Shown here piece after piece: positions 123 to 16,994 of a stretch of 32,000 nucleotides of DNA; position 1 is the first letter of the stretch; every line of letters begins with the position of its first letter. The notes under the pieces were generated by a model. The model had not been told where the DNA came from and searched no databases. It saw only the letters and a program-made list of their open reading frames with translations. The position numbers and the translations under genes were made by a program. The stretch is from Halomicronema hongdechloris C2206 (GTDB lineage: Bacteria > Cyanobacteriota > Cyanobacteriia > Phormidesmidales > Phormidesmidaceae), in contig NZ_CP021983.2 of assembly GCF_002075285.3 (NCBI RefSeq), positions 4,680,001 to 4,712,000 of the forward strand. The letters run 5' to 3'.

Positions 123-2717
123 ATGCGCCCCGCCGCTCATCTCCTCAGCCTCGCCACCCTCACCGCCCTGTTTATTCCTGTTATCCAGGTCGCTGCCACC
201 CAGATTCCGGAGACATTTCAAAAGCCTCAAGATCCAGAGCAACCACAAGGCAATCCATTACTCCTAGATCAACAGCCCCTCTCAGAACGTCAGGCAGAGG
301 CGAACAGATTACGTCAGCAAGGTTTTGAACAGTACAAAGCCAGACAGTTTCAGGCAGCACGTGAGTCCCTAGAGCAAGCGCTGGTCATTTATCGAGATTT
401 GGAAGACCGGAAACGAGAAGGACAAATGCTGGGCAGTTTAGGGATTATCCACAGCAATCTAGGGCAATATCGACAGGCCATTAGCTATTACGAGCAGCAA
501 CTGTTGGTTACCCGCGAAATTGGCGATCGCGTAGGAGAGAGTGATGCTCTCGGCACCTTGAGCAATGTGTACCAAACTTTGGGAGACGATCAACAGGCGA
601 TTAACTTGCTGGAACAAGCGTTATCTGTTGCTCGGGAAATTGGCGATCGTCTGAGAGAAGGAAGTTCTCTTAATGGGCTAGGGGTTGCCTACAAAGATCT
701 TGGTAATTATTGGCAGGCCATCGCCTTCTATGAGCAAGCTTTGGCAATTTATCGCGAAATTGATGAACTTTTCGGTGAAGCAGAAGTTCTAGGAAATCTG
801 GGTGTAGCTTACGGACTGCTGGGCGATCATCGACAAGCAATTAACCTCCACGAGCAGCAGCTAGCCCTTCACGAGCAGCAGCTAGCAATCACTGGCGACA
901 TCTATCATCACCGTGGATTAGGACGTGCTCTTAGCAGTTTAGGCAATGCTTACTACAGTCTTGGCAACTATCAACAAGCTATTGGTTTTTATGAGCAAGG
1001 ATTAGCTGTTAAACGTCAAACTGGCGATCGCCACGGCGAAGGAAACACCCTGGCAAATTTAGGTAGACTATTTGACGCCCAAGAACAGCCTGAATTGGCC
1101 ATTGTTTTTCTTAAGGCTTCGGTCGAAGTACGCGAGTCCATTCGCAGTGGTATGCGAGACCTCGATCCAGACCTACAAAAATCTTATTTAGATACTGTAG
1201 CGAGCACATATCGCCTGCTAGCTGACCTCCTTCTCCAACAAGACCGCATTATGGAAGCCCAGCGGGTACTGGACTTGCTGAAGGTGCAGGAACTCGACGA
1301 CTACATTCGCGGCGTTGAGCGTACCAGCGAAACCGAAGCAGGGGTTGACTTTCTGCGGCCTGAGGAGACGATTTTGGCCCGGTACGATGCTTTGCAAGAA
1401 TCCGCCATTGCTGCTGGCCAAGAACTCGAAGACCTCAAGGCTATTCCCCGAGAACAACGTAGTGAAGAGCAGGTACAGCGCATTGCCCAACTCACGGACT
1501 TACTGGACGACATCAACGGCGACTTCCGCGACTTTGCCCGCAGTCCCGAAATTCTCAAGCTGATTGATGAATTGAACTTCGAAGCTCGGGAAGCCAGCCT
1601 CAGTCTCAATCAACTCGATCGCCTTCGCGACGAACTCCAGCAGCTCAACGCCGCCATCTTCTATCCCCTCATCCTGGACGATCGCCTGGAGTTGGTGATT
1701 ACCGTGCCCGACTCGCCCCCGCTGCGACGAACTGTTCAGGTGTCTCGCGAGGAGCTAAACGCGGCAATTCTAGAATTCCGCACCGCACTCACCCACCCAG
1801 GTTCTGACGCGGAAACGCCTGCCCAACAGCTTTACGACTGGCTGATCCGTCCTCTGGAAGCTGACTTAGGGGCAGCCGGAGTCGAAACCCTCATCTACTC
1901 CCCCGATGGGCAACTGCGCTACATTCCCCTCGCTGCCCTGCATGACGGTGAGCAATGGCTGATCCAGCAGTACCGCATCAACAACATCACCGCCGAATCT
2001 CTCACCGACCTGACCGAGAGCGATACCCCTCAGCCCAGCATTCTGGCTGCTGCCTATGCGGACCCCTCCCTGATCCATGAGCCGGAGGTGAACGGCACCT
2101 CTTATACATTTCAGGGCTTACCCGGTGCCGGGGCCGAAGTCGCCACCCTCCCCACCGAGACCAAATTCCTCGACGAAGCCTTTAGCCTGGATTCGGTGCG
2201 GCCATTGATGGACGAGTACAGCATTCTGCACTTTGCCACCCATGCCGCCTTCGTTCCCGGCGTACCCGAAGATTCCTTCATTCTGTTTGGCAATGGCGAC
2301 ACGCCCACCCTGCGAGATGTGGAAGACTGGTCGTTGAACGGCGTTGAGCTGGTGGTGCTGAGCGCTTGCGAAACCGGGGTGGGCGGCCTGGGCAACGGCG
2401 AAGAAATTTTGGGACTGGGCTATCAGTTTCAGGTGAGTGGGGCTAGGGCGGTGATGTCGTCCCTGTGGAAAGTCAGTGACCAGGGCACCCAGGTCTTGAT
2501 GACGGAGTTTTACGCTGCCCTCGGTCAGGGCATGACCAAGGCGGAGGCCCTGCAGCGAGCCCAGCAGGCGTTGATCGCCAATGACCTCAGTCTGGTCGGC
2601 GGTGGGCGCGGCACCATTGATGTCATTAGCACCGAAACCGGACAACCCCTCACCGGCAACAATCTCAGCCATCCCTACTACTGGGCATCGTTTATCCTCA
2701 TTGGCAACGGGTTGTGA
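123..2717 (+). CDS. Secreted TPR-repeat / CHAT-domain (caspase-like protease fold) protein
   Basis: 864-aa ORF. The N-terminus has a hydrophobic signal-like segment (MRPAAHLLSLATLTALFIPVIQVAAT). Tandem TPR units show the recurring pattern Y.QAI.(F/Y)YEQ.L...REIGDR.GE. The C-terminal region has the CHAT-type His/Cys dyad contexts ILHFATHA and VVLSACETG. Confidence 0.85.
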   Translation: MRPAAHLLSLATLTALFIPVIQVAATQIPETFQKPQDPEQPQGNPLLLDQQPLSERQAEANRLRQQGFEQYKARQFQAARESLEQALVIYRDLEDRKREGQMLGSLGIIHSNLGQYRQAISYYEQQLLVTREIGDRVGESDALGTLSNVYQTLGDDQQAINLLEQALSVAREIGDRLREGSSLNGLGVAYKDLGNYWQAIAFYEQALAIYREIDELFGEAEVLGNLGVAYGLLGDHRQAINLHEQQLALHEQQLAITGDIYHHRGLGRALSSLGNAYYSLGNYQQAIGFYEQGLAVKRQTGDRHGEGNTLANLGRLFDAQEQPELAIVFLKASVEVRESIRSGMRDLDPDLQKSYLDTVASTYRLLADLLLQQDRIMEAQRVLDLLKVQELDDYIRGVERTSETEAGVDFLRPEETILARYDALQESAIAAGQELEDLKAIPREQRSEEQVQRIAQLTDLLDDINGDFRDFARSPEILKLIDELNFEAREASLSLNQLDRLRDELQQLNAAIFYPLILDDRLELVITVPDSPPLRRTVQVSREELNAAILEFRTALTHPGSDAETPAQQLYDWLIRPLEADLGAAGVETLIYSPDGQLRYIPLAALHDGEQWLIQQYRINNITAESLTDLTESDTPQPSILAAAYADPSLIHEPEVNGTSYTFQGLPGAGAEVATLPTETKFLDEAFSLDSVRPLMDEYSILHFATHAAFVPGVPEDSFILFGNGDTPTLRDVEDWSLNGVELVVLSACETGVGGLGNGEEILGLGYQFQVSGARAVMSSLWKVSDQGTQVLMTEFYAALGQGMTKAEALQRAQQALIANDLSLVGGGRGTIDVISTETGQPLTGNNLSHPYYWASFILIGNGL

Positions 2718-10524: not shown

Positions 10525-10908
10525 CTATGAAGGAGCTGTTTTCTGCAAGTCCTCCAGGGCACTGATAACAAAGGTGGCGGCAGGATGTTTCACCAACTGC
10601 TTTAGGGTGGCCGTGCCTCCGGCTTTCAGGGCACTAAACAACCGCTGCAGCAGGGGCGGATGCTGCTGAATCTGTGCCACCGCTTCGGTGGCGACGGCCA
10701 TGTGGTTAGTCACCCCTTGCCCCGGATGCTGGGTCGAAAGCTGCTGCAACAGGATTTGCAAATCCGCTGACACAGCCATGAGTGACTGCTCGTCAGCCGT
10801 ATCCATATGCTGCTGGATCTGATTCCCCACGGCGATCTGGCCGCTGTTGTCATGGGCATTGATATGGGCATTGATGGCCCCAGGATCGGGAGTATTCGCA
10901 GAAGTCAT
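10525..10908 (-). CDS. Small helical protein sharing the N-terminal AHI..DNSGQIAVG.I.Q tag with the upstream STAND NTPase
   Basis: ORF 10525..10938. I prefer the internal ATG at 10908 (MTSANTPDPG...) because GGAG lies 7 nt upstream of it. It sits 62 nt downstream of the STAND gene on the same strand. The C-terminal ~85 aa look all-helical (LQILLQQLSTQHPGQG...LLQRLFSALKAGGTATLKQLVKHPA). Confidence 0.65.
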   Translation of the reverse strand: MTSANTPDPGAINAHINAHDNSGQIAVGNQIQQHMDTADEQSLMAVSADLQILLQQLSTQHPGQGVTNHMAVATEAVAQIQQHPPLLQRLFSALKAGGTATLKQLVKHPAATFVISALEDLQKTAPS

Positions 10909-10970
10909 GGTGGATCTCCTCAAAAAGATGGACAACATTACAGTGTTTGATCGGTTTTTAGGGGGGGTGG

Positions 10971-13900
10971 TTAAATGAGATCCCCACCGCCAGCACCATT
11001 GCCATTAGACGATGGGGCACCCTCGCTGCCACCAGCACCATTGGTACTGCCTGATCCCCGGCCGGACGACCCAGTCGACCCAGGATCTGGAGGGCTTTGA
11101 GTGTCCTGCGGCAACTGCATGGTGCCTTGAAGCGGCACGGTCAGCGGGCTATTGGGATCATTGCTGGTGATGGTCAGGGACTCAATCTGCAGGGGAGCAT
11201 CTCCCTGGTTCCGAATCGTCAGCTCCTGTTGGCGACCATTGCCCACCAACGCTTCATAGGGCACAGACCCAAAGTCTATCTCTGCAGGCTGAGCCACGGC
11301 TAAAGGAGCGGTGACGGGCTCAGAGGGGGGCTCTGTCACCGTGACGGCAACGGTGGCGGTGGCGGTGCGGTGACCGGCTTGCACCTGATAGGTAAAGCGA
11401 TCCGCGCCCACGAACTGTTCAGACAGATAGGTGACAGATCCGTCGTCATTGCGAGTCACGCTGCCGTGCTCAGGCGCCGACACGGATAACAACTCCAGGG
11501 GCTCTCCCGCCGGATCTCGATCGTTGTCTAGGGGGAAGAGGGTCACGGCTTGCCCGACTTCGGTGGTGATCTGGTCATCTGTCACCTGGATCTCTGGTGG
11601 TGGTAGTACTGTAATGGCAATGGTGGCGGTGTCTGTTTGGGAGCCGTCAGTGAGGGTGTAGGTGATGCGATCGCGTCCGGAGAAATCAGGCTCGGGGGTA
11701 TAGGTAATGGTGCCCGCGGCCTCATCGATGGCTAGCTGGCCATGGTCTGGTGGCGTTACAGTGTCCAGCCGTAGAGTATCGCCGCGATCATTGTCCAGGG
11801 GACGAATCTCCACGGCCTCTCTGTAGGCGGTGTCAACGGCATCATTCACGGCCTCTAAGGGGGCAGCCACGACGGAGACTTCGATCAACGCCTGCTGACG
11901 CTGCTCGCCATTGCTAGCCCCATACTCGAAGGTGTCGAGGCCAGAGAAGCCGGGGTCAGGCGTATACCGCAGGCGATTCGAGCCTAGACGCTCTAGGCGG
12001 CCATGGGCTGGTGTGGCCACCTCTTCCAGCCTCAGGGGTTGCCCCAAGGGATCTCGATCATTGGCTAGGGGCGCGATCTCCACTGGCTGTTCCTGGGGAG
12101 TCTCCACGAAGTCATGGTTGAGTTGCAGGGGAACCGTAGGCAAGACCTCTATCTGAACCGCGGCCGCGGCCCTGCGATCGCCATCACTGACCGTGTAGAT
12201 AAAGCCATCCTGCCCGGAAAACTGGGTTGCTGGCCGGTAGAGGAGACTGCCATCGCTCTGGCGTTCTACTCGACCGTGGGCTGGGGCCGTGACCTCAGTA
12301 ATCTGCAGTGCCTGGCCCCTAGGATCGCGATCATTGTGCAGAGGCGTAATCCTGACCGGCTGGCCGTAGGCGGTCTGGACAAAATCATCAAACGCTTGAA
12401 TCGGCTCAGGAGCTGCCACCGCCACCTCAACCAGCCCCTTGGCCGTATGATCACCATCGCTAACGGTGTACTCAAACCGCTCTGAGCCGGAGAAGCGGGG
12501 GGCGGGCGTATAGGTCAGGCTACCGTCGCCGTGCACCTGCACCCGCCCCTGCAAAGGCTGCTGCAGCGCCACGATGGCCAGGGGATTGCCATCACGATCT
12601 CGATCATTCTGCAAAGGGACAATCTGTACTGCCTGACCATAGGCGGTTGTGACAATATCCGGTAATGCTTGAGGCGGATGAGAAGGCCTCACGGGAGGAC
12701 TAGGAGGCTGAGGAGACGGGGAAAAACTGGGGCCACTACCAGAGGATTCGGTCTCAGGAGAGGCAAAAGGTTGAATGCTAATATCCGCCAATTGGTCTTC
12801 GATCTCATTCGGATCTAAGGAAGGACTGTCTTCAAACGGTGTCGACTCTGGGCCAAGGTTTTTAATTGCCTCGGCCGCCATTACAGCTAAGGCTGTGGTG
12901 GTGCCACCGGCCAGCAGCAGCAGCGGTAGGTTTTTGCCCGTGAGTAGGGACCAGCGCTGGGGCGGCGCTGGACTCGATGGCATCGGTTGGCAGCGCAGTG
13001 CCGCCAAGCTTTGGCTGAGGTCGTCAGGGTCACTGTCCAGGAAGTCCTCTGCCGGTGATGGGTCGACGTCGATGTCCTCCTCGATAGGATCGGCGTCTTT
13101 CTCATCAGAGTCAGCATTAGGCCCCAAGAGTAACTCCAGGTTATGGCGGGTGACGGCGATGGCATCGGCATTGCCCAGGCTCTGACGCAGTTCTAGGGCC
13201 TCCGTCAGGGCGCTCAGGGCAGTGTCTCGATCCCCAAGGCACAGGGCTCGTGTCCCCAACTGATGCAACGCCCATGCGGTCTGGGCAGTGTCTGCCAGGG
13301 CTCGGGCTGCCTGCAGCAGGATGCCCAGCAGCAAGAACCAGGCTCCCCAGCGATGCGATCGCATCAGCTGCGGCTCGATGGCCCGAGCCAAAATAATGGC
13401 CTCCTGATAATGGCCTTGATCCACGGCCCATGCCGCCAGATACTGCATGGGATCAATGTCTTCTGGTGGAATCGCCTCGCTGGGCAGCTGCCCTACCCAA
13501 GTGACATAGCGCTCCAGTAAGACCTGCCGGCTCTGCTCAATGGGCCAGCGTTGGGCCAAGCCCTCCGCCAGATTCGGGGCCAGGGAGTAAGCATTGCCTT
13601 CTAGTTGCACCAGCCGCAGCTGCTCCAGGCTCTGCAGCACCTGGCGGGTCTCCGGCAGCGAGGAGATCACGGGTGATGACAGGCGAGCTAGCTGCTCGAC
13701 GGTCATGGCCAGGGCCTCCAGGGCAGTCAGGATAGCTAGGATGAGCTGCTGCTGCCGCTTACGAGTGCTAGACGCACTCAGCAGCACTCGATCTCGGGTC
13801 TTGGCAGCCTGCTGAGCCAATTTAGCCAGGGAGCGCCGCTCCTGACGATGGAGGGCACTAGCCTGCAGAATCCGCAGGGGATGCCCCTCCAGGTGTTGGC

Positions 13901-14621
13901 ATAGAGCCTCAGCGTGAGCATATTCAGCGGGTCGCAGGGGACGCCCCAGATCCTGTTGCAACAAGGCCACGGCCTCCGGTAAGGGTAGACCCGATAGCGG
14001 CAATGGTCTGCCATCTCCCCCGAGGCGACGCTCTGGAGCAGTGACCAGGAACAGGCACTGGGGCATTCGGTTCAGAAGTTGCTCGATGGCGGCGGCATCG
14101 AGTTGCAGATCGTCTAAGACCACCAGGGCCTGGATGGGCTGTAGGTAATGAGCCAGCTCGTGATCGGTGGCTCGATAGGGAATATCGGTGTCGTAGAAGG
14201 CCTCAAACAGAAACTGCTCTAGGTCGGCTCGGGGCTTGCCGTGGGCCGAGACATAGACAATGCCATCGCCATAGGCCTTCCAGGTGGTGCTGTGGAGCAG
14301 ATGGCGAACTAACACCGACTTGCCAATGCCCGGTTGACCGTAGACATCGACTGACTGGTGGATGCTGAGGTGCTGTAGCGCCAGTTGCTGCGCCTGCTGT
14401 CGACCGATCAGGTGAGGAAATGGCCGCGGCAGTAACTTAACTGGTTGGGAGCGCCGAGTTACCTGAGCGGTCTGGGCAGGAGGGGCCACATTGACCAGTC
14501 CGCCATAGTTGGTGAGCTGCAGAATATGATCGCCCACGGCAATCTGGCCGCTGTTATCGCCGGTGATATGGGCCGCTATGGAGGGAACAACGGTAGGGGC
14601 AAGTTGGGGGGCCGTTGCCAT
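10971..14621 (-). CDS. Membrane-spanning NB-ARC/STAND P-loop NTPase with C-terminal cadherin-like repeat array
   Basis: 1216-aa ORF. NTPase motifs: Walker A GQPGIGKS (nt 14316..14339), Walker B LVVLDD, FLVTAPERR (sensor-1-like), LSGLPLPEAVALL and EGHPLRILQ (GxP-like). Then follow a helical TPR-like region, an acidic linker and a hydrophobic helix LPLLLLAGGTTTALAVMAAEAI (nt 12864..12929). After a Pro/Ser linker come five ~90-aa cadherin-like repeats, a beta-sandwich-like IDFGSV...LTIRNQGDAPLQI module and a Gly/Ser tail. Confidence 0.85.
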   Translation of the reverse strand: MATAPQLAPTVVPSIAAHITGDNSGQIAVGDHILQLTNYGGLVNVAPPAQTAQVTRRSQPVKLLPRPFPHLIGRQQAQQLALQHLSIHQSVDVYGQPGIGKSVLVRHLLHSTTWKAYGDGIVYVSAHGKPRADLEQFLFEAFYDTDIPYRATDHELAHYLQPIQALVVLDDLQLDAAAIEQLLNRMPQCLFLVTAPERRLGGDGRPLPLSGLPLPEAVALLQQDLGRPLRPAEYAHAEALCQHLEGHPLRILQASALHRQERRSLAKLAQQAAKTRDRVLLSASSTRKRQQQLILAILTALEALAMTVEQLARLSSPVISSLPETRQVLQSLEQLRLVQLEGNAYSLAPNLAEGLAQRWPIEQSRQVLLERYVTWVGQLPSEAIPPEDIDPMQYLAAWAVDQGHYQEAIILARAIEPQLMRSHRWGAWFLLLGILLQAARALADTAQTAWALHQLGTRALCLGDRDTALSALTEALELRQSLGNADAIAVTRHNLELLLGPNADSDEKDADPIEEDIDVDPSPAEDFLDSDPDDLSQSLAALRCQPMPSSPAPPQRWSLLTGKNLPLLLLAGGTTTALAVMAAEAIKNLGPESTPFEDSPSLDPNEIEDQLADISIQPFASPETESSGSGPSFSPSPQPPSPPVRPSHPPQALPDIVTTAYGQAVQIVPLQNDRDRDGNPLAIVALQQPLQGRVQVHGDGSLTYTPAPRFSGSERFEYTVSDGDHTAKGLVEVAVAAPEPIQAFDDFVQTAYGQPVRITPLHNDRDPRGQALQITEVTAPAHGRVERQSDGSLLYRPATQFSGQDGFIYTVSDGDRRAAAAVQIEVLPTVPLQLNHDFVETPQEQPVEIAPLANDRDPLGQPLRLEEVATPAHGRLERLGSNRLRYTPDPGFSGLDTFEYGASNGEQRQQALIEVSVVAAPLEAVNDAVDTAYREAVEIRPLDNDRGDTLRLDTVTPPDHGQLAIDEAAGTITYTPEPDFSGRDRITYTLTDGSQTDTATIAITVLPPPEIQVTDDQITTEVGQAVTLFPLDNDRDPAGEPLELLSVSAPEHGSVTRNDDGSVTYLSEQFVGADRFTYQVQAGHRTATATVAVTVTEPPSEPVTAPLAVAQPAEIDFGSVPYEALVGNGRQQELTIRNQGDAPLQIESLTITSNDPNSPLTVPLQGTMQLPQDTQSPPDPGSTGSSGRGSGSTNGAGGSEGAPSSNGNGAGGGDLI
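11334..12665 (-). repeat. Five tandem ~90-aa coding repeats (cadherin-like / tandem-95-type Ig-fold) inside the STAND gene
   Basis: Each unit follows the pattern D.V.T.(Y)GQ.V.I.PL.NDRDP.G..L.(I/L)..V..P.HG.V......G.L.Y.P...FSG.D.F.Y.(V/L)SDG; five copies are diverged at the DNA level. Confidence 0.8.
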
Positions 14622-14858: not shown

Positions 14859-15864
14859 ATGACAATGAAAGCGATGGTCATTGAGCAATTTGGCGACCCC
14901 ACGGTCTTTCAGCCAGCCGAGGTGCCAACACCAGAGATACCGGCCCACCATGTGCTGATTCGGGTGATGGCCACCAGTGTCAATCCCGTGGATGTGAAAA
15001 TCCGTCAGGGAGCGGTGGCCGCCATTGCTCCGGACTTTCCGGCGATTCTGCATGGAGATGTGGCTGGCGTGGTAGACGCCTTGGGCCAGGGAGTATCTGG
15101 CCTTGAGGTTGGCGATGAGGTCTATGCCTGTGCCGGGGGCATCAAGGGTACTGGTGGCGCCTTGGCGGAGTACATGGTGGCCGATGCCAGCTTAGTCGCT
15201 CCCAAACCCCGCAGCCTGACCATGCTGGAAGCCGCGGCTCTGCCCCTGGTCTCCATCACTGCTTGGGAAGGATTAATCGATCGGGCCCAGGTGCAAGCGG
15301 GACAGCGAGTCTTGGTCTACGGAGCCACGGGAGGGGTGGGCCATGTGGGCCTGCAGCTGGCCAAGGGAGCCGGAGCCACGGTCTATGCCATGGTGTCTAG
15401 CCCGGAGAAGGCTGCCGTTGCCCGGCAACTAGGAGCCGATGTCACCCTAAACTATCGCCAAATCCCTGTGGCAGATCTGGTGGCTCAGCACACCGAGGGC
15501 CAGGGCTTCGATGTGGTGTTTGACACCGTCGGCAACGACAATCTGCAAAACGCCTTCCAAGCGGCCCGACTCAATGGCACCGTCGTGTCTCTGGTGGCCC
15601 GTTCGCAACAGGACTTGAGTCTGCTCCACGCCAAGGGCCTGACCCTGCATCTGGTCTTCATGTTGCTGCCGCTGCTATCAGGCATCAACCGAGCCCACCA
15701 CGGCTGGATCCTGACACAGGTTGCCCAGCGGGGTAGACCAGGGGCAACTGCGGCCCCTGCTGGCGGAGCAAACCTTTACGATCGGCGATGTGGCTAAGGC
15801 CCATGCCTACCTGGAGTCGGGAACGGCGGTGGGTAAGGTAGTCCTGGCTCAATCCCTGGCTTAG
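14859..15864 (+). pseudogene. Zinc-type alcohol dehydrogenase / NADPH:quinone oxidoreductase (MDR family), interrupted by a +1 frameshift or a sequencing error
   Basis: The frame starting at 14859 gives a typical MDR N-terminus plus a Rossmann motif (VLVYGATGGVGHVGLQLAK). It becomes Arg/Pro/Gly junk after ...ILTQVAQ. The authentic-looking C-terminus VDQGQLRPLLAEQTFTIGDVAKAHAYLESGTAVGKVVLAQSLA* is read in the next frame from 15733 to 15864. Total length is 1006 nt, that is 3n+1. Confidence 0.75.
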
Positions 15865-16994
15865 TAATCTACCCCGCGCTTCAGGTCTACTCCCTTTTCG
15901 GCATAGTGCTTGTGGCAAAACACCTCGGAGTGGACACTGGAGAGATCGAAATAGGTAGGCGGGTTTTTGCAGCGGCCGGTGATAATCACCTCGGTATCAC
16001 GGGGCTTACGCAGCAGGGCCTGGACAATGGGTTCCTCTGGCAAGAGTTCCAGATCTACGGTGGGGTTGAGTTCATCCAGGATGATGGTCTTGTAGAGGCC
16101 GGAGGCGATGGCGGTGCGGGCAATCTCCCAGCCCCGTTCGGCTTCCACATAGTCGATCTCTTGCTGCTGGCCCCGCCAGACGATGGCGTCGCGGCCACAG
16201 CGTTGATGGTCCACCAGGTCGGGATAGCTCTTGCGCAGGGCGGCGATGGCGGCATCTTCCGTATAGCCCTGCCCCCCTTTCAGCCACTGCATGATCAACA
16301 CCCGGTGGGACTTGTCCTGACTGATGCCGCGACCGATGGCTTGCAGGGCTTTGCCCAGGGCACTGGTGGACTTGCCCTTGCCGTCGCCGGTGTAGATCTC
16401 GACCCCTTCGATGCCGGGATAATCCTCAGGCCGGTAATGGCAGGGCTTCATCTCGGAATGGAGGTCGGCGATGTCGAGGAGGGCTGGGGGGGCGCCGCGA
16501 CCGGTGGCGATGATCTCGAGCTGCTCGGGTTTACGGCGCAGGGTACGGACCACGTCGTCGATGGGCAGGAGTCCCAGATCCAGGACTGGATTCAGCTCAT
16601 CTAAAACCACCACGGAATAGAGGCCGGAGGCGATGGCTCCCTTGGCCACATCCCAACCGCGCTGGGCCTCTTGCCGGTCGAAGCGGGTGATCTCCCCGGG
16701 ACCGAAGAATTCGGCGCGGCCGGTGCGGACTTGGTCGATCAAGTGGGGAAAGCCCCGTTGCAGGGCTTCGATGGCGGCGTCTTCGTCGTAGGTGCGACCG
16801 GGACCCTTGAGAAACCGTAGTAGCAGTACTCGACTCTCCATAAACTGCTGAATGCCCAGGCCAATGGAGCGCAGCACCACCCCCAGGGCCACTTGAGACT
16901 TGCCCTTGCCGTCGCCGTCATAGACATGGATCTGGCCAGTGAGCCGCTCGCTGTTGCCCTGGGCTGTCCGAATGCCGATGCCGGTTTTAACCAT
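15861..16994 (-). CDS. cobO: Tandem two-domain CobA/CobO/BtuR-family cob(I)yrinic acid a,c-diamide adenosyltransferase-like protein
   Basis: 377-aa ORF made of two clearly homologous halves. Each half has a GDGKGKS P-loop, (F/W)LKG..G.(Y)(D/T)EDAAI.AL, ERGW(D/E).A..AIASGLY and (V/I)LDELNP..DL.LLP. Confidence 0.75.
   Translation of the reverse strand: MVKTGIGIRTAQGNSERLTGQIHVYDGDGKGKSQVALGVVLRSIGLGIQQFMESRVLLLRFLKGPGRTYDEDAAIEALQRGFPHLIDQVRTGRAEFFGPGEITRFDRQEAQRGWDVAKGAIASGLYSVVVLDELNPVLDLGLLPIDDVVRTLRRKPEQLEIIATGRGAPPALLDIADLHSEMKPCHYRPEDYPGIEGVEIYTGDGKGKSTSALGKALQAIGRGISQDKSHRVLIMQWLKGGQGYTEDAAIAALRKSYPDLVDHQRCGRDAIVWRGQQQEIDYVEAERGWEIARTAIASGLYKTIILDELNPTVDLELLPEEPIVQALLRKPRDTEVIITGRCKNPPTYFDLSSVHSEVFCHKHYAEKGVDLKRGVDY

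What the first reader, a model, noticed from the sequence alone, without database searches (positions are those of the whole stretch)
10525..14621. Two-gene module: a transmembrane NB-ARC/STAND NTPase with an apparently extracellular cadherin-like array, plus a small tag-sharing partner
The 1216-aa protein has a complete NB-ARC-type NTPase core: Walker A GQPGIGKS, Walker B LVVLDD, and sensor-1-like and GxP-like motifs. It lacks the usual cytoplasmic TPR/WD40 sensor. Instead it has a short helical region, an acidic linker and one hydrophobic helix (LPLLLLAGGTTTALAVMAAEAI). These are followed by a Pro/Ser spacer, five cadherin-like repeats, an ASH/PapD-like beta-sandwich and a Gly/Ser tail.

That topology would put the ligand- or contact-sensing part outside the cell and the oligomerising switch inside. 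I do not know this arrangement from described STAND families. I can see no nuclease, protease, TIR or other effector domain.

The only candidate output is the co-oriented 127-aa helical protein 62 nt downstream, which repeats the NTPase's N-terminal tag. This echoes the homotypic adaptor-domain logic of STAND conflict systems. In a filamentous cyanobacterium the module could serve surface, kin or phage sensing.
Basis: partly seen in the sequence, partly recalled or inferred. Interest (0 to 1): 0.8.

Follow-up and report, generated by a model that had tools for sequence, protein, structure and literature searches.

The report
Membrane-spanning NLR-like switch with tag-matched partner
A cyanobacterial gene pair encodes an Apaf-1/NLR-type ATPase switch anchored in the membrane, apparently with its variable domains outside the cell, plus a small partner carrying the same short tag; related pairs occur in six bacterial phyla, often with caspase, CHAT or TIR partners, which points to an undescribed outside-in cell-death or immunity receptor.

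Summary
Window 10971-14621(-) encodes a 1216-aa protein, in this order:
- a short N-terminal Gly/Gln/Val tag;
- an NB-ARC/Apaf-1-like NTPase;
- a conserved short TPR-like module;
- an acidic linker and one hydrophobic helix;
- five Big_9/cadherin-like repeats and a truncated choice-of-anchor-D remnant.

62 nt downstream, a 127-aa gene (10525-10908) repeats the tag (15/23 identical) and is under purifying selection (dN/dS 0.10).

The large protein belongs to an unnamed family: 191 proteins, and 130 loci in species-representative genomes of six phyla. Tag, NTPase, TPR-like module and a helix about 27 residues further on are conserved. Everything after the helix varies and is typically extracytoplasmic (LysM, CARDB, fn3, DUF11, Ig-like). 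Flanking charges favour N-in/C-out.

About 30 of 81 loci have an adjacent gene carrying the same tag, fused to a caspase, CHAT, TIR or small helical domain. The window's partner belongs to a large cyanobacterial family whose members match a neighbour's terminal tag in all five other neighbourhoods examined.

Best reading: an outside-in STAND receptor that recruits or activates its partner through the shared tag, as in BASS amyloid signalling or EAD coupling. This is a new variant of a known kind. Topology, ligand, the partner's activity and amyloid formation are untested.

The parts
10971..14621 (-). Gene for the 1216-aa membrane-anchored NB-ARC/STAND protein (stop codon 10971-10973)
   Evidence: ORF. 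Family of 191 homologues. Syntenic orthologue in L001.
14484..14582 (-). N-terminal tag (aa 14-46: SIAAHITGDNSGQIAVGDHILQLTNYGGLVNVA). It is Gly/Gln/Val-rich, predicted as a low-confidence beta-hairpin, and followed by a Pro/Arg-rich linker.
   Evidence: Conserved at the N-terminus across the family. Tag HMM E 1.5e-14. The model shows strands 26-29 and 32-35 at pLDDT about 50.
13542..14441 (-). NOD module (NBD, helical domain, winged helix; aa 61-360). It includes Walker A GQPGIGKS (14316-14339), Walker B ALVVLDD (14109-14129) and the GxP motif EGHPL.
   Evidence: Sequence. PDB profile hits to NB-ARC and STAND proteins. Model pLDDT >90, Foldseek best match Apaf-1 at E 8e-12.
13122..13541 (-). 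Conserved TPR-like module of seven helices (aa 361-500) containing the family signature WALHQLGTRALCL...TRHNL
   Evidence: TPR_12 E 3e-5, below cut-off. Invariant columns W425, H453, Q454, G456, N494. Helices 361-499 in the model.
12930..13121 (-). Acidic linker, predicted disordered (aa 501-564). It is longer than in most homologues.
   Evidence: pLDDT below 50. Offset of 61 residues from core to helix, against a family median of 27.
12861..12929 (-). Predicted single transmembrane helix (aa 565-587: LPLLLLAGGTTTALAVMAAEAIK)
   Evidence: Kyte-Doolittle 1.76. Helix in the model. Position conserved in the family. Positive-inside bias.
12678..12860 (-). Pro/Ser/Glu-rich stalk (aa 588-648)
   Evidence: Sequence. 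Homologues carry Pro/Thr-rich stalks at the same place.
11352..12677 (-). Five Big_9/Cadherin_5 (tandem-95) repeats (aa 649-1090), the predicted ectodomain
   Evidence: Pfam Big_9 E 8.8e-85 in 5 stretches; NCBIfam tandem-95 repeat E 1.3e-63.
11112..11351 (-). Remnant of a choice-of-anchor-D/ASH-type Ig-like domain (aa 1091-1170), with an 87-residue internal deletion relative to the L001 orthologue
   Evidence: Weak hits only: choice_anch_D E 8e-6, HYDIN-like E 0.097. Alignment with L001.
10974..11111 (-). Gly/Ser/Asn-rich C-terminal tail (aa 1171-1216), lineage-specific
   Evidence: Absent from the L001 orthologue, which stops just after QLPQAP.
10909..10970 (-). 62-nt intergenic spacer with the Shine-Dalgarno-like GAGGAG (10916-10921). 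No promoter-like or terminator-like site was found, which is consistent with co-transcription.
   Evidence: The spacer is 12 nt in L001.
10525..10908 (-). Gene for the 127-aa partner (XM38_044600)
   Evidence: dN/dS 0.10 against the L001 orthologue.
10807..10878 (-). The partner's copy of the tag (aa 11-34: AINAHINAHDNSGQIAVGNQIQQH). Only the first half of the NTPase tag is present.
   Evidence: BLASTP 15/23 identical, E 3e-6. Tag HMM E 5.5e-7. Disordered in the model.
10537..10800 (-). The partner's four-helix domain (aa 37-124), with the conserved motif NHPAA(S/T)FVI
   Evidence: Model pLDDT 80-89. 799 cluster representatives at E<=1e-3. No Pfam match and no PDB fold match.

Best explanation
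The two genes form a membrane-anchored STAND (NLR-like) signalling module.

**Large protein.** It sits in the cytoplasmic membrane with its N-terminal tag, NB-ARC NTPase and conserved TPR-like module in the cytoplasm. Its cadherin/Ig-like array lies outside the membrane (N-in/C-out).

**Proposed mechanism (inferred).**
1. A change at the ectodomain, such as ligand binding, clustering, cleavage or loss of attachment, passes through the single helix and linker to the TPR-like module.
2. This relieves auto-inhibition of the NTPase, which exchanges nucleotide and oligomerises as Apaf-1 and NLR proteins do.
3. Oligomerisation brings the N-terminal tags together.
4. The clustered tags capture the matching tag of the 127-aa partner, by beta-strand pairing or amyloid-like templating as in BASS/NLR pairs, and so concentrate or switch on its four-helix domain.
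5. In relatives the same tag instead recruits caspase-like, CHAT or TIR proteins. The output is therefore most likely a regulated cell-death or immunity response, as in the STAND conflict systems of multicellular bacteria.

**Shown here:** the domain anatomy, conservation of the family, conservation of the helix with its charge bias, the recurrence and partial co-variation of tag-bearing neighbours, and purifying selection on the partner.

**Inferred only:** the topology, the direction of signalling, the way the tags interact, and what the helical domain does.
For: **NOD identity.** Walker motifs are present. PDB profile hits and Foldseek place the protein with Apaf-1, CED-4, plant NLRs and PH0952.

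**Family.** 191 homologues share about 40% identity over the cytoplasmic part. All follow the plan tag - NOD - TPR-like module - helix - variable C-terminus. 130 loci were found in species-representative genomes of Chloroflexota, Cyanobacteria, Actinomycetota, Acidobacteriota, Gemmatimonadota and Armatimonadota.

**Topology.** The helix is conserved in position, flanking charges follow the positive-inside rule, and the domains after the helix are of extracytoplasmic type, including LysM.

**Where the variation lies.** The variable part is the region after the helix. The TPR-like module is the most conserved part. This fits a variable outside sensor and a conserved transducer.

**Partners.** All 21 tag hits outside the NTPases are co-oriented, and all but two or three lie directly adjacent. 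They are fused to Peptidase_C14 plus a zinc ribbon, CHAT, TIR_2 or a small helical domain. A partner's tag matches its own NTPase best in 7 of 18 loci, where about 1 is expected; the window pair ranks first.

**The window's partner.** dN/dS is 0.10. There is a Shine-Dalgarno-like sequence and a short spacer, and the pair is syntenic in L001. Its four-helix domain belongs to a family of at least 799 cluster representatives. All five other members whose neighbourhoods I read share their N-terminal tag with the terminus of the adjacent protein: a NACHT protein, a P-loop NTPase and three DUF6232 proteins. A sixth shares its tag with an internal stretch of its neighbour.

**Precedent.**
- BASS motifs are shared between NLR N-termini and adjacent effectors, including TIR and CHAT proteins (bioRxiv 10.1101/2020.01.06.895854).
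- The Bab/Agp pair uses amyloid signalling in phage defence (bioRxiv 10.1101/2024.11.07.622273).
- Effector-associated domains couple core proteins to effectors (PMC7159879).
- The tag locally resembles listed BASS2 and BASS6 examples.
Against: **Topology.** No experimental or dedicated topology prediction was available. The window's own helix is only moderately hydrophobic (1.76) and contains Gly, Thr and Glu. The Fischerella/Nostocales branch has still weaker segments (1.0-1.4).

**The partner's tag and domain.**
- The partner carries only the first half of the tag.
- The tag sits N-terminal to the helical domain, the reverse of Bell/BASS proteins.
- The helical domain has no recognisable fold relative (best Foldseek E 0.5), no enzymatic signature and no strongly hydrophobic helix (maximum Kyte-Doolittle 0.84). 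An effector role is therefore a guess.
- Homology between this cyanobacterial domain and the helical partners of other phyla is only suggestive (hhalign 63%, E 7e-5).

**Coverage and context.**
- Only about 30 of 81 loci show a tag-bearing neighbour. Most Nostocales loci show none.
- The window's neighbours are housekeeping genes, not a defence island.
- The ectodomain is no more diverged than the rest of the protein between the two closest orthologues.
- PADLOC has no model for this system.
Confidence: 0.6

Rival explanations
1. The protein senses a cytoplasmic signal, and the ectodomain is not the sensor. The part outside the membrane only tethers the STAND protein to the envelope, for example to peptidoglycan, the sheath or septa. 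It may also report envelope integrity passively. The tag-coupled output would be the same.
For: In known STAND proteins the sensor contacts the NOD directly. Here a TPR-like module sits in that position. LysM, S-layer-like and Ig-like domains are as typical of anchoring as of sensing. The ectodomain shows no extra divergence between the window and L001.
Against: The TPR-like module is short and is the most conserved part of the family. That is unlike the variable sensors of conflict systems. All the diversity lies after the helix. A mere anchor would not need such varied, exchangeable domains.
Confidence: 0.2
2. The 127-aa protein is a regulator or adaptor rather than the output. In one version it caps the NTPase tag and prevents premature self-assembly. 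In another it bridges, through its four-helix domain, to other proteins that carry the same domain and are encoded elsewhere in the genome.
For: The partner holds only half of the tag. The four-helix domain is non-enzymatic and soluble-looking. The same domain ends many large multidomain proteins (CHAT-like, TIR-like, kinase, pentapeptide-repeat membrane proteins), as adaptor domains do. In L012 a CHAT protease, the tag and the possibly related helical partner domain of other phyla are fused in one protein.
Against: In most loci the tag-bearing neighbour is the only candidate output. It occupies the same position as the caspase, TIR and CHAT proteins. No second copy of the domain lies in the window.
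Confidence: 0.15
3. The module is a surface or adhesion device rather than a conflict system. The cytoplasmic NTPase would control display, clustering or turnover of a cadherin-like adhesin (inside-out signalling) for filament cohesion, gliding or aggregation.
For: Big_9/cadherin-like arrays are common in adhesins. The neighbourhood is housekeeping. The host is a filamentous cyanobacterium.
Against: Relatives pair the same NTPase with caspase-like, CHAT and TIR proteins through the shared tag. These are hallmark cell-death and immunity effectors. Ectodomains are freely exchanged for non-adhesin types such as LysM.
Confidence: 0.08
4. The hydrophobic segment is not a membrane helix, and the whole protein is cytoplasmic or secreted by another route. 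The architecture would then be an ordinary soluble STAND protein with unusual C-terminal repeats.
For: The window's segment scores only 1.76 and contains a Glu. Model confidence there is about 55. Several Nostocales homologues score 1.0-1.4.
Against: Most homologues have strongly hydrophobic helices (2.0-3.1) at the same position. They show a positive-inside charge bias, followed by Pro/Thr stalks and LysM or CARDB domains, which function outside the cytoplasm.
Confidence: 0.05

Closest known systems
BASS amyloid-signalling gene pairs: a Bell-domain protein plus an NB-ARC/NACHT NLR (Dyrka et al. 2020, bioRxiv 10.1101/2020.01.06.895854), and Bab/Agp with BASS11 (bioRxiv 10.1101/2024.11.07.622273)
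   Same: A short G/N/Q/V/I-rich motif of about 20-35 residues sits at the N-terminus of a STAND NTPase and recurs in the product of a collinear, closely spaced neighbouring gene. Alternative partners carry TIR or CHAT domains. The systems are enriched in filamentous or multicellular bacteria. The tag locally resembles listed BASS2 (…VSGxVxGxVVQAxDVHGG…) and BASS6 (…SGDRAVAVGHNQGIVSTG…) examples.
   Different: The partner has no Bell domain. Its tag is N-terminal to a different four-helix domain, and only half of the NTPase tag is repeated. The NTPase has a membrane helix and ectodomains instead of long TPR or WD40 arrays. Neither amyloid formation nor a match to the published BASS profiles was tested.
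Effector-associated domain (EAD) coupling in NTP-dependent conflict systems of multicellular bacteria (Kaur et al. 2020, PMC7159879; 2021, PMC8195603)
   Same: One copy of an adaptor sits on the core NTPase and a second copy on an effector encoded next door. The effectors include caspase, CHAT and TIR proteins. Adjacent copies resemble each other more than non-adjacent ones do. That paper also notes GAP1 GTPases with C-terminal membrane helices and cadherin domains.
   Different: EADs are small folded alpha or alpha+beta domains. This tag is a stretch of 25-35 residues predicted to be unstructured or a beta-hairpin, and it matches no Pfam EAD model. The membrane-plus-ectodomain arrangement described there belongs to GTPase systems, not NB-ARC STAND proteins.
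Apaf-1 / CED-4 / plant NLR (AP-ATPase, NB-ARC clade of STAND) and archaeal PH0952
   Same: The same NBD, helical-domain and winged-helix core, which gives the best Foldseek and profile matches, followed by helical repeats. The expected mechanism is nucleotide-dependent oligomerisation that clusters N-terminal adaptor elements.
   Different: Those proteins are soluble, with cytoplasmic WD40, LRR or TPR sensors and folded N-terminal adaptors (CARD, CC, TIR). This protein has a short conserved TPR-like module, then a membrane helix and ectodomains.
Bacterial single-pass receptors with a cytoplasmic N-terminal enzyme and an extracellular C-terminal binding domain, such as PknB-type Ser/Thr kinases with PASTA domains (named from general knowledge, not tested here)
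   Same: N-in/C-out topology with an internal signal-anchor helix. A cell-wall-binding or Ig-like ectodomain is coupled to a cytoplasmic signalling module.
   Different: The cytoplasmic module is an oligomerising STAND NTPase with a tag-coupled partner, not a kinase.
Characterised antiphage STAND systems (Avs, bNACHT; PADLOC models; PMC13581612)
   Same: STAND NTPases that trigger effectors on recognising a signal.
   Different: Those sense phage proteins in the cytoplasm through large C-terminal repeat domains and usually carry the effector in the same protein. No PADLOC model matches this protein.

Membership tests
STAND NTPase, AP-ATPase/NB-ARC clade | P-loop NTPase with Walker A (GxxGxGK[ST]) and Walker B (hhhhDD) | tested here: met
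   GQPGIGKS at aa 95-102 and ALVVLDD at 165-171. G98, G100, K101 and D170 are invariant or nearly so in the family.
STAND NTPase, AP-ATPase/NB-ARC clade | Fold of NBD, helical domain and winged helix, most like Apaf-1, CED-4 or R-proteins | tested here: met
   AlphaFold2 pLDDT >90 for residues 51-500. Foldseek: Apaf-1 E 8e-12, wheat, tomato and Arabidopsis resistosomes, CED-4. Profile against PDB: 9jbn NB-ARC E 3e-7, 6mfv E 5e-8.
STAND NTPase, AP-ATPase/NB-ARC clade | Score above the Pfam NB-ARC (PF00931) gathering threshold | tested here: not met
   17.3 bits against a cut-off of 23.5 for the window protein. Many homologues do carry a precomputed PF00931 hit.
STAND NTPase, AP-ATPase/NB-ARC clade | C-terminal superstructure-forming repeat sensor (TPR, WD40 or LRR) | tested here: inconclusive
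   Only a short seven-helix TPR-like module is present (TPR_12 24.6 bits against a cut-off of 30.1). It is conserved rather than variable.
BASS / NLR-associated amyloid signalling pair | A short motif shared between the NLR N-terminus and the product of an adjacent collinear gene | tested here: met
   15/23 identical, E 3e-6. The spacer is 62 nt here and 12 nt in L001. The arrangement recurs in about 30 loci.
BASS / NLR-associated amyloid signalling pair | A partner built as an N-terminal Bell (or other effector) domain with the motif at its C-terminus | tested here: not met
   In the window partner the tag is N-terminal and is followed by a four-helix domain with no Pfam or PDB relative. The caspase, CHAT and TIR partners in other loci do carry the tag C-terminally.
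BASS / NLR-associated amyloid signalling pair | Motif composition rich in G/N/Q/V/I and poor in K/P/L, with beta propensity | tested here: met
   Consensus I.A.I.GE(I/V)SGQVAVG..I.QIGSVHGGVVN. The model shows a beta-hairpin at low confidence.
BASS / NLR-associated amyloid signalling pair | Match to one of the published BASS1-11 profiles | not tested
   The profiles were not available. I compared by eye with BASS2 and BASS6 examples in the paper's Supplementary Table 2.
BASS / NLR-associated amyloid signalling pair | The motif forms amyloid fibrils or prions, and the receptor templates the effector | not testable with these tools
   This needs peptide fibrillation (ThT, EM), GFP-foci assays and beta-breaker mutants.
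Effector-associated domains (EAD1-11, bDLD) | A small folded adaptor domain that matches a described EAD or Death-like family | tested here: not met
   Neither protein gives a Pfam hit to any EAD or Death-like model at E<=0.1. The four-helix domain has no Death-fold match in the PDB.
Effector-associated domains (EAD1-11, bDLD) | Duplicate presence on a core component and on an adjacent effector, with adjacent copies most alike | tested here: met
   (7 of 18 cognate best matches).
Known antiphage defence systems (PADLOC-DB v2) | A significant match to a PADLOC protein model | tested here: not met
   Only chance-level hits, E 0.013 and 0.022.
Tandem-95 / Big_9 repeat surface proteins | Repeated Big_9/Cadherin_5 units above the curated cut-off | tested here: met
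   Big_9 280 bits in 5 stretches; NF012211 211 bits against a cut-off of 90.

The most novel reading that the evidence does not exclude
This family would be a previously unrecognised class of bacterial transmembrane NLRs. They would be single-pass receptors that read an extracellular or cell-wall cue through exchangeable ectodomains (LysM, Ig-like, cadherin-like). They would transmit it across the membrane to an Apaf-1-type NTPase. They would then fire caspase, CHAT, TIR or small helical effectors through amyloid-like templating of a shared N-terminal tag. Surface pattern recognition and NLR signalling, which plants and animals keep in separate proteins, would be fused in one polypeptide. In addition, the partner's four-helix domain would be a new tag-controlled executioner or adaptor family, widespread in cyanobacteria and functionally analogous to Bell/HeLo domains.
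Probability: 0.35. Interest if true: 0.9.

Novelty: new variant of a known kind. Interest (0 to 1): 0.74.

Why it matters
All characterised STAND/NLR receptors, whether bacterial Avs and bNACHT proteins, Apaf-1, or plant and animal NLRs, are described as intracellular sensors. A large, phylum-spanning family that places the variable region outside the membrane would show that NOD-type oligomerising switches can also be wired for outside-in signalling.

The family also offers tractable models. The LysM-bearing members point to a concrete candidate ligand, peptidoglycan fragments.

The work also exposes a large, unannotated cyanobacterial family of proteins built as a terminal tag plus a four-helix domain. 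Five further members had their neighbourhoods examined. All five match the terminal tag of the adjacent gene's product: a NACHT protein, a P-loop NTPase and three DUF6232 proteins. This would extend tag-based (possibly amyloid) signalling beyond the Bell domain, and it gives many natural tag pairs on which to test specificity.

For filamentous cyanobacteria it suggests candidate genes for regulated cell death, phage defence or neighbour sensing.

Tried and rejected
- **Pfam, NCBIfam and PADLOC scans of the small protein** gave nothing.
- **A word-based homologue search with the small protein** found only itself and one orthologue. The exhaustive profile search was needed to reveal the family.
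- **The first attempt to fetch loci with a 29-sequence alignment** failed for lack of a conserved stretch. An 8-sequence alignment worked.
- **Foldseek of the partner model against the PDB** gave no match better than E 0.5. I therefore dropped the idea that the partner is a Death-like, Bell/Bab-like or other known helical fold; no such structure is among the listed matches.
- **Profile-profile comparison of the window partner with the helical partners of other phyla** covered only the tag and first helix with the small alignment (88%, E 3e-6). With a larger alignment it covered the whole domain, but only at 63% probability. I treat homology as suggestive, not established.
- **A conserved third gene** was sought by clustering all neighbours. 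None was found beyond lineage-specific synteny.
- **Faster divergence of the ectodomain** between the two closest orthologues was tested and not seen.
- **Promoter and terminator scans** around the pair were uninformative.
- **The BASS11 sequence** could not be retrieved: figures and supplements are not held. Identity with BASS11 therefore remains open.
- **Literature searches** for a transmembrane NB-ARC/STAND protein with ectodomains returned only plant papers or unrelated systems.
- **The large protein itself** was absent from the protein collection although its neighbour is present. I did not resolve why.

Full report
**1. What is in the sequence**

The window comes from Halomicronema hongdechloris C2206. 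The small ORF is 100% identical to XM38_044600.

On the minus strand lie a 1216-aa ORF (10971-14621) and, 62 nt downstream, a small ORF. The small ORF most likely starts at ATG 10908, giving 127 aa. GAGGAG lies 7 nt upstream of that ATG, and this is the annotated form. No promoter-like or terminator-like site separates the two genes.

A metagenomic contig from a close relative (L001) carries the same pair with a 12-nt spacer. Comparing the small ORFs gives dS 1.15, dN 0.12 and dN/dS 0.10. It is therefore a real gene under purifying selection.

**2. Anatomy of the large protein**

The parts, in order, are:

- **N-terminal tag (residues 14-46).** SIAAHITGDNSGQIAVGDHILQLTNYGGLVNVA, followed by a Pro/Arg-rich linker.
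- **NTPase core (residues 61-360).** Walker A is GQPGIGKS, Walker B is ALVVLDD, and there is an EGHPL GxP motif.
  - Pfam NB-ARC and AAA_16 hits stay below their gathering scores.
  - A family profile reaches a plant NB-ARC protein (9jbn, E 3e-7) and the archaeal STAND protein PH0952 (6mfv, E 5e-8).
  - An AlphaFold2 model built on 29 family members has pLDDT >90 across residues 51-500.
  - Its best PDB matches are Apaf-1 (E 8e-12), PH0952, plant resistosomes and CED-4.
- **TPR-like module (residues 361-500).** Seven helices, with TPR_12 at E 3e-5, below cut-off.
- **Acidic linker (residues 501-564).** Predicted disordered.
- **Hydrophobic helix (residues 565-587).** LPLLLLAGGTTTALAVMAAEAIK, Kyte-Doolittle 1.76.
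- **Stalk.** Pro/Ser-rich.
- **Five Big_9/Cadherin_5 (tandem-95) repeats (residues 649-1090).** Pfam E 9e-85.
- **Weak choice-of-anchor-D/ASH-like segment and Gly/Ser tail.** Alignment with the L001 orthologue shows that the window protein has lost 87 residues from the middle of the last Ig-like domain. The Gly/Ser tail is a lineage-specific extension.

**3. The protein belongs to a large, unnamed family**

A search with residues 1-640 returned 191 proteins, about 40% identical over the cytoplasmic part. A pattern scan of species-representative genomes confirmed 130 loci. The 79 distinct loci kept come from Chloroflexota (mainly Anaerolineae), Cyanobacteria, Actinomycetota, Acidobacteriota, Gemmatimonadota and Armatimonadota.

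All members share the same plan:

- an N-terminal tag, consensus I.A.I.GE(I/V)SGQVAVG..I.QIGSVHGGVVN, sometimes preceded by a zinc ribbon;
- a PRP-rich linker;
- the NOD;
- the TPR-like module, which holds the most conserved stretch of the family, WALHQLGTRALCL;
- a short Pro-rich linker;
- a hydrophobic helix.

Among 69 complete loci, 56 have a helix with Kyte-Doolittle >=1.6 (34 have >=2.0), at a median 27 residues after the conserved core.

Everything after the helix varies. From the precomputed Pfam annotation, the regions include LysM in at least 16 proteins and ASH/HYDIN/choice-of-anchor-D Ig-like domains in about 26. They also include CARDB, fn3, DUF11 and Big_9/cadherin-like domains. 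In the alignment these lie C-terminal to the helix.

The 15 residues before the helix carry 1.99 Lys+Arg on average, against 0.97 after it (n=156, Wilcoxon p 3.5e-10). This fits the positive-inside rule for an N-in/C-out protein.

A Fischerella/Nostocales branch has weaker hydrophobic segments (1.0-1.4).

**4. The tag-sharing partner is a family trait**

In the window, the tags of the two proteins align with 15 of 23 residues identical (E 3e-6).

An HMM of the tag was searched against all 15,338 six-frame segments of the 81 loci. Besides the NTPases it found 21 segments at E<0.01. All 21 lie on the NTPase strand, and all but two or three lie directly next to the NTPase gene. Weaker hits and pairwise comparison of each NTPase N-terminus with its neighbours added more. 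In total about 30 loci have such a neighbour.

The partners fall into classes:

- **(a) Small helical proteins** of about 140-160 aa, with the tag at the N-terminus and a helical C-terminal domain. These occur in Chloroflexota, Acidobacteriota, Gemmatimonadota and Actinomycetota.
- **(b) Caspase-like proteins:** Peptidase_C14, then a C-terminal tag, then a zinc ribbon (7 loci).
- **(c) CHAT proteases with the tag.** In L012, CHAT, the tag and the class (a) helical domain are fused in one protein.
- **(d) TIR_2 proteins** with a C-terminal tag.
- **(e) Nostocales small proteins** encoded upstream. They use a different G/N/Q motif that again matches their own NTPase.

A partner's tag is most similar to its own NTPase in 7 of 18 loci, where about 1 is expected. 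The median rank is 3.5 of 18, and the window pair ranks first (62% identity against a mean of 42%).

No conserved third gene was found.

**5. The window's partner belongs to a large cyanobacterial family**

The AlphaFold2 model (64 sequences) has residues 1-35 disordered and a four-helix domain at residues 37-124 with pLDDT 80-89. It has no PDB fold relative (best E 0.5) and no Pfam, NCBIfam or PADLOC match.

An exhaustive profile search found 799 cluster representatives at E<=1e-3 and 269 at E<=1e-10. The named hits are all cyanobacterial. The domain occurs in two contexts:

- standalone proteins of about 120-140 aa;
- the C-terminus of larger proteins, among them CHAT-like, TIR-like, kinase and pentapeptide-repeat membrane proteins.

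In the sequences inspected, the domain is preceded by a G/N/Q-rich stretch of one of several types.

I examined six further members in their genomic context. In five, the small protein's N-terminal motif matches a terminal motif of the adjacent gene's product. In the sixth (L082) it matches an internal stretch of the neighbour:

| Locus | Neighbour | Position of the matching motif |
|---|---|---|
| L081 | NACHT / multi-TM / Peptidase_S26 protein | N-terminus |
| L087 | 852-aa P-loop protein | N-terminus |
| L084, L085, L086 | DUF6232 membrane proteins | C-terminal 26 residues, nearly identical to the small protein's N-terminus |
| L082 | 273-aa membrane protein | internal, residues ~90-110 |

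So 'terminal tag plus four-helix domain, matched to the neighbour' is a general design, and the window pair is one instance of it.

Homology between this cyanobacterial domain and the class (a) helical partners of other phyla is only suggestive (hhalign 63%, E 7e-5 over the whole domain).

**6. Mechanism**

The shown facts fit the logic established for three kinds of system:

- NLR-associated amyloid signalling, in which BASS motifs are shared by NLR N-termini and adjacent Bell, TIR or CHAT proteins;
- Bab/Agp, in which the receptor-side motif converts the effector-side motif and causes abortive infection;
- effector-associated domains.

The tag has the composition and length of BASS motifs. 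It locally resembles listed BASS2 and BASS6 examples.

My best explanation (confidence 0.6) runs as follows. An event at the ectodomain is passed through the single helix to the conserved TPR-like module. The NTPase then oligomerises and its N-terminal tags cluster. The clustered tags capture the matching tag of the partner, which concentrates or activates the partner's helical domain.

The caspase, CHAT and TIR partners in relatives argue that the output is regulated cell death or immunity.

The topology, the direction of signalling, the physical nature of the tag interaction and the activity of the four-helix domain are all inferred.

The main rivals are:

- the ectodomain is only an anchor and the signal is cytoplasmic (0.2);
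- the small protein is a cap or adaptor rather than the effector (0.15);
- the module has an adhesion-control role (0.08);
- there is no membrane insertion at all (0.05).

**7. Comparison with known systems and novelty**

The NOD core is a member of the Apaf-1/NB-ARC clade by motif and fold tests, although it falls below Pfam's NB-ARC cut-off.

The pair works like a BASS or EAD system but fails defining features of both:

- there is no Bell domain;
- the tag is at the partner's N-terminus;
- there is no folded EAD.

No PADLOC model matches.

In the papers I could search, membrane helices with C-terminal cadherin domains are mentioned for GAP1 GTPase systems. Periplasm-facing lectin sensors are predicted for some DGR targets. 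I found no description of an NB-ARC STAND protein with a membrane helix and exchangeable ectodomains. That is absence of evidence within an incomplete library.

I therefore rate the finding a new variant of a known kind. The outside-in 'transmembrane NLR' reading is the most novel case the evidence does not exclude (probability about 0.35).

**8. Context**

The window's neighbours are housekeeping genes: a DUF3370 protein, a zinc-type dehydrogenase, a CobO-like adenosyltransferase, Ham1, an ABC exporter and an RND pump. A TPR-CHAT protein lies 8 kb away. There is no obvious defence island.

Noticed in passing
window 123-2717 (+): An 864-aa protein with TPR repeats and a CHAT protease domain (CHAT E 1.7e-65) lies 8 kb from the module. 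It carries neither the tag nor the four-helix domain.
   Followed up: partly
window 11112-11351 and 10974-11111 (-): Relative to its orthologue in L001, the window protein has lost 87 residues from the middle of the last Ig-like (choice-of-anchor-D/ASH) domain, between PLQIE and LTITSNDPNS. It has also gained a 44-residue Gly/Ser/Asn tail through a later stop.
   Followed up: yes
L084 5389-6396, L085 5372-6393, L086 5364-6387: In Nostoc, Tolypothrix and Symploca, a DUF6232 membrane protein ends with about 26 residues (DNSIKIGTNIGSSVVSGH.EGD...). These are almost identical to the N-terminus of the four-helix protein encoded 52-62 nt downstream. This is a conserved tag-matched pair with no NTPase.
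   Followed up: partly
L081 7001-9972: In Moorea, a four-helix small protein lies directly upstream of an 851-aa protein with a NACHT domain, a long glycine-zipper multi-TM region and a C-terminal Peptidase_S26 (signal-peptidase-like) domain. The two N-termini share a motif (…GTYVEGDYYNN / …GVYVEGNYINH).
   Followed up: partly
L002 1800-8556; L023 5309-12042: Some loci hold two tandem paralogues of the membrane-anchored NTPase followed by a single tag-bearing partner: caspase plus zinc ribbon in L002, a small helical protein in L023.
   Followed up: no
L012 6236-7855: One Armatimonadota protein fuses a CHAT protease, the tag and the small helical partner domain in a single chain, encoded upstream of the NTPase. 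This is a natural 'Rosetta stone' linking the partner classes.
   Followed up: partly
L026-L029, L044, L050, L052, L057-L063: The Fischerella/Stigonema/Nostocales branch of the family has only a weakly hydrophobic segment (Kyte-Doolittle 1.0-1.4, e.g. VLLSPKGVITTGILAAGGL) about 100 residues after the core, and no detectable tag-bearing neighbour. These members may not be membrane-inserted.
   Followed up: no
window 10971-14621: The 1216-aa protein was not returned at 100% identity from the protein collection, and the small ORF could not be located on a contig. Yet the small ORF's sequence is present from the same genome. The large gene may be annotated differently, for example as a pseudogene, or may be missing from the collection.
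   Followed up: no
window 15861-16994 (-): A 377-aa protein consists of two tandem CobA/CobO/BtuR adenosyltransferase domains (two matched stretches, E 9e-87).
   Followed up: no
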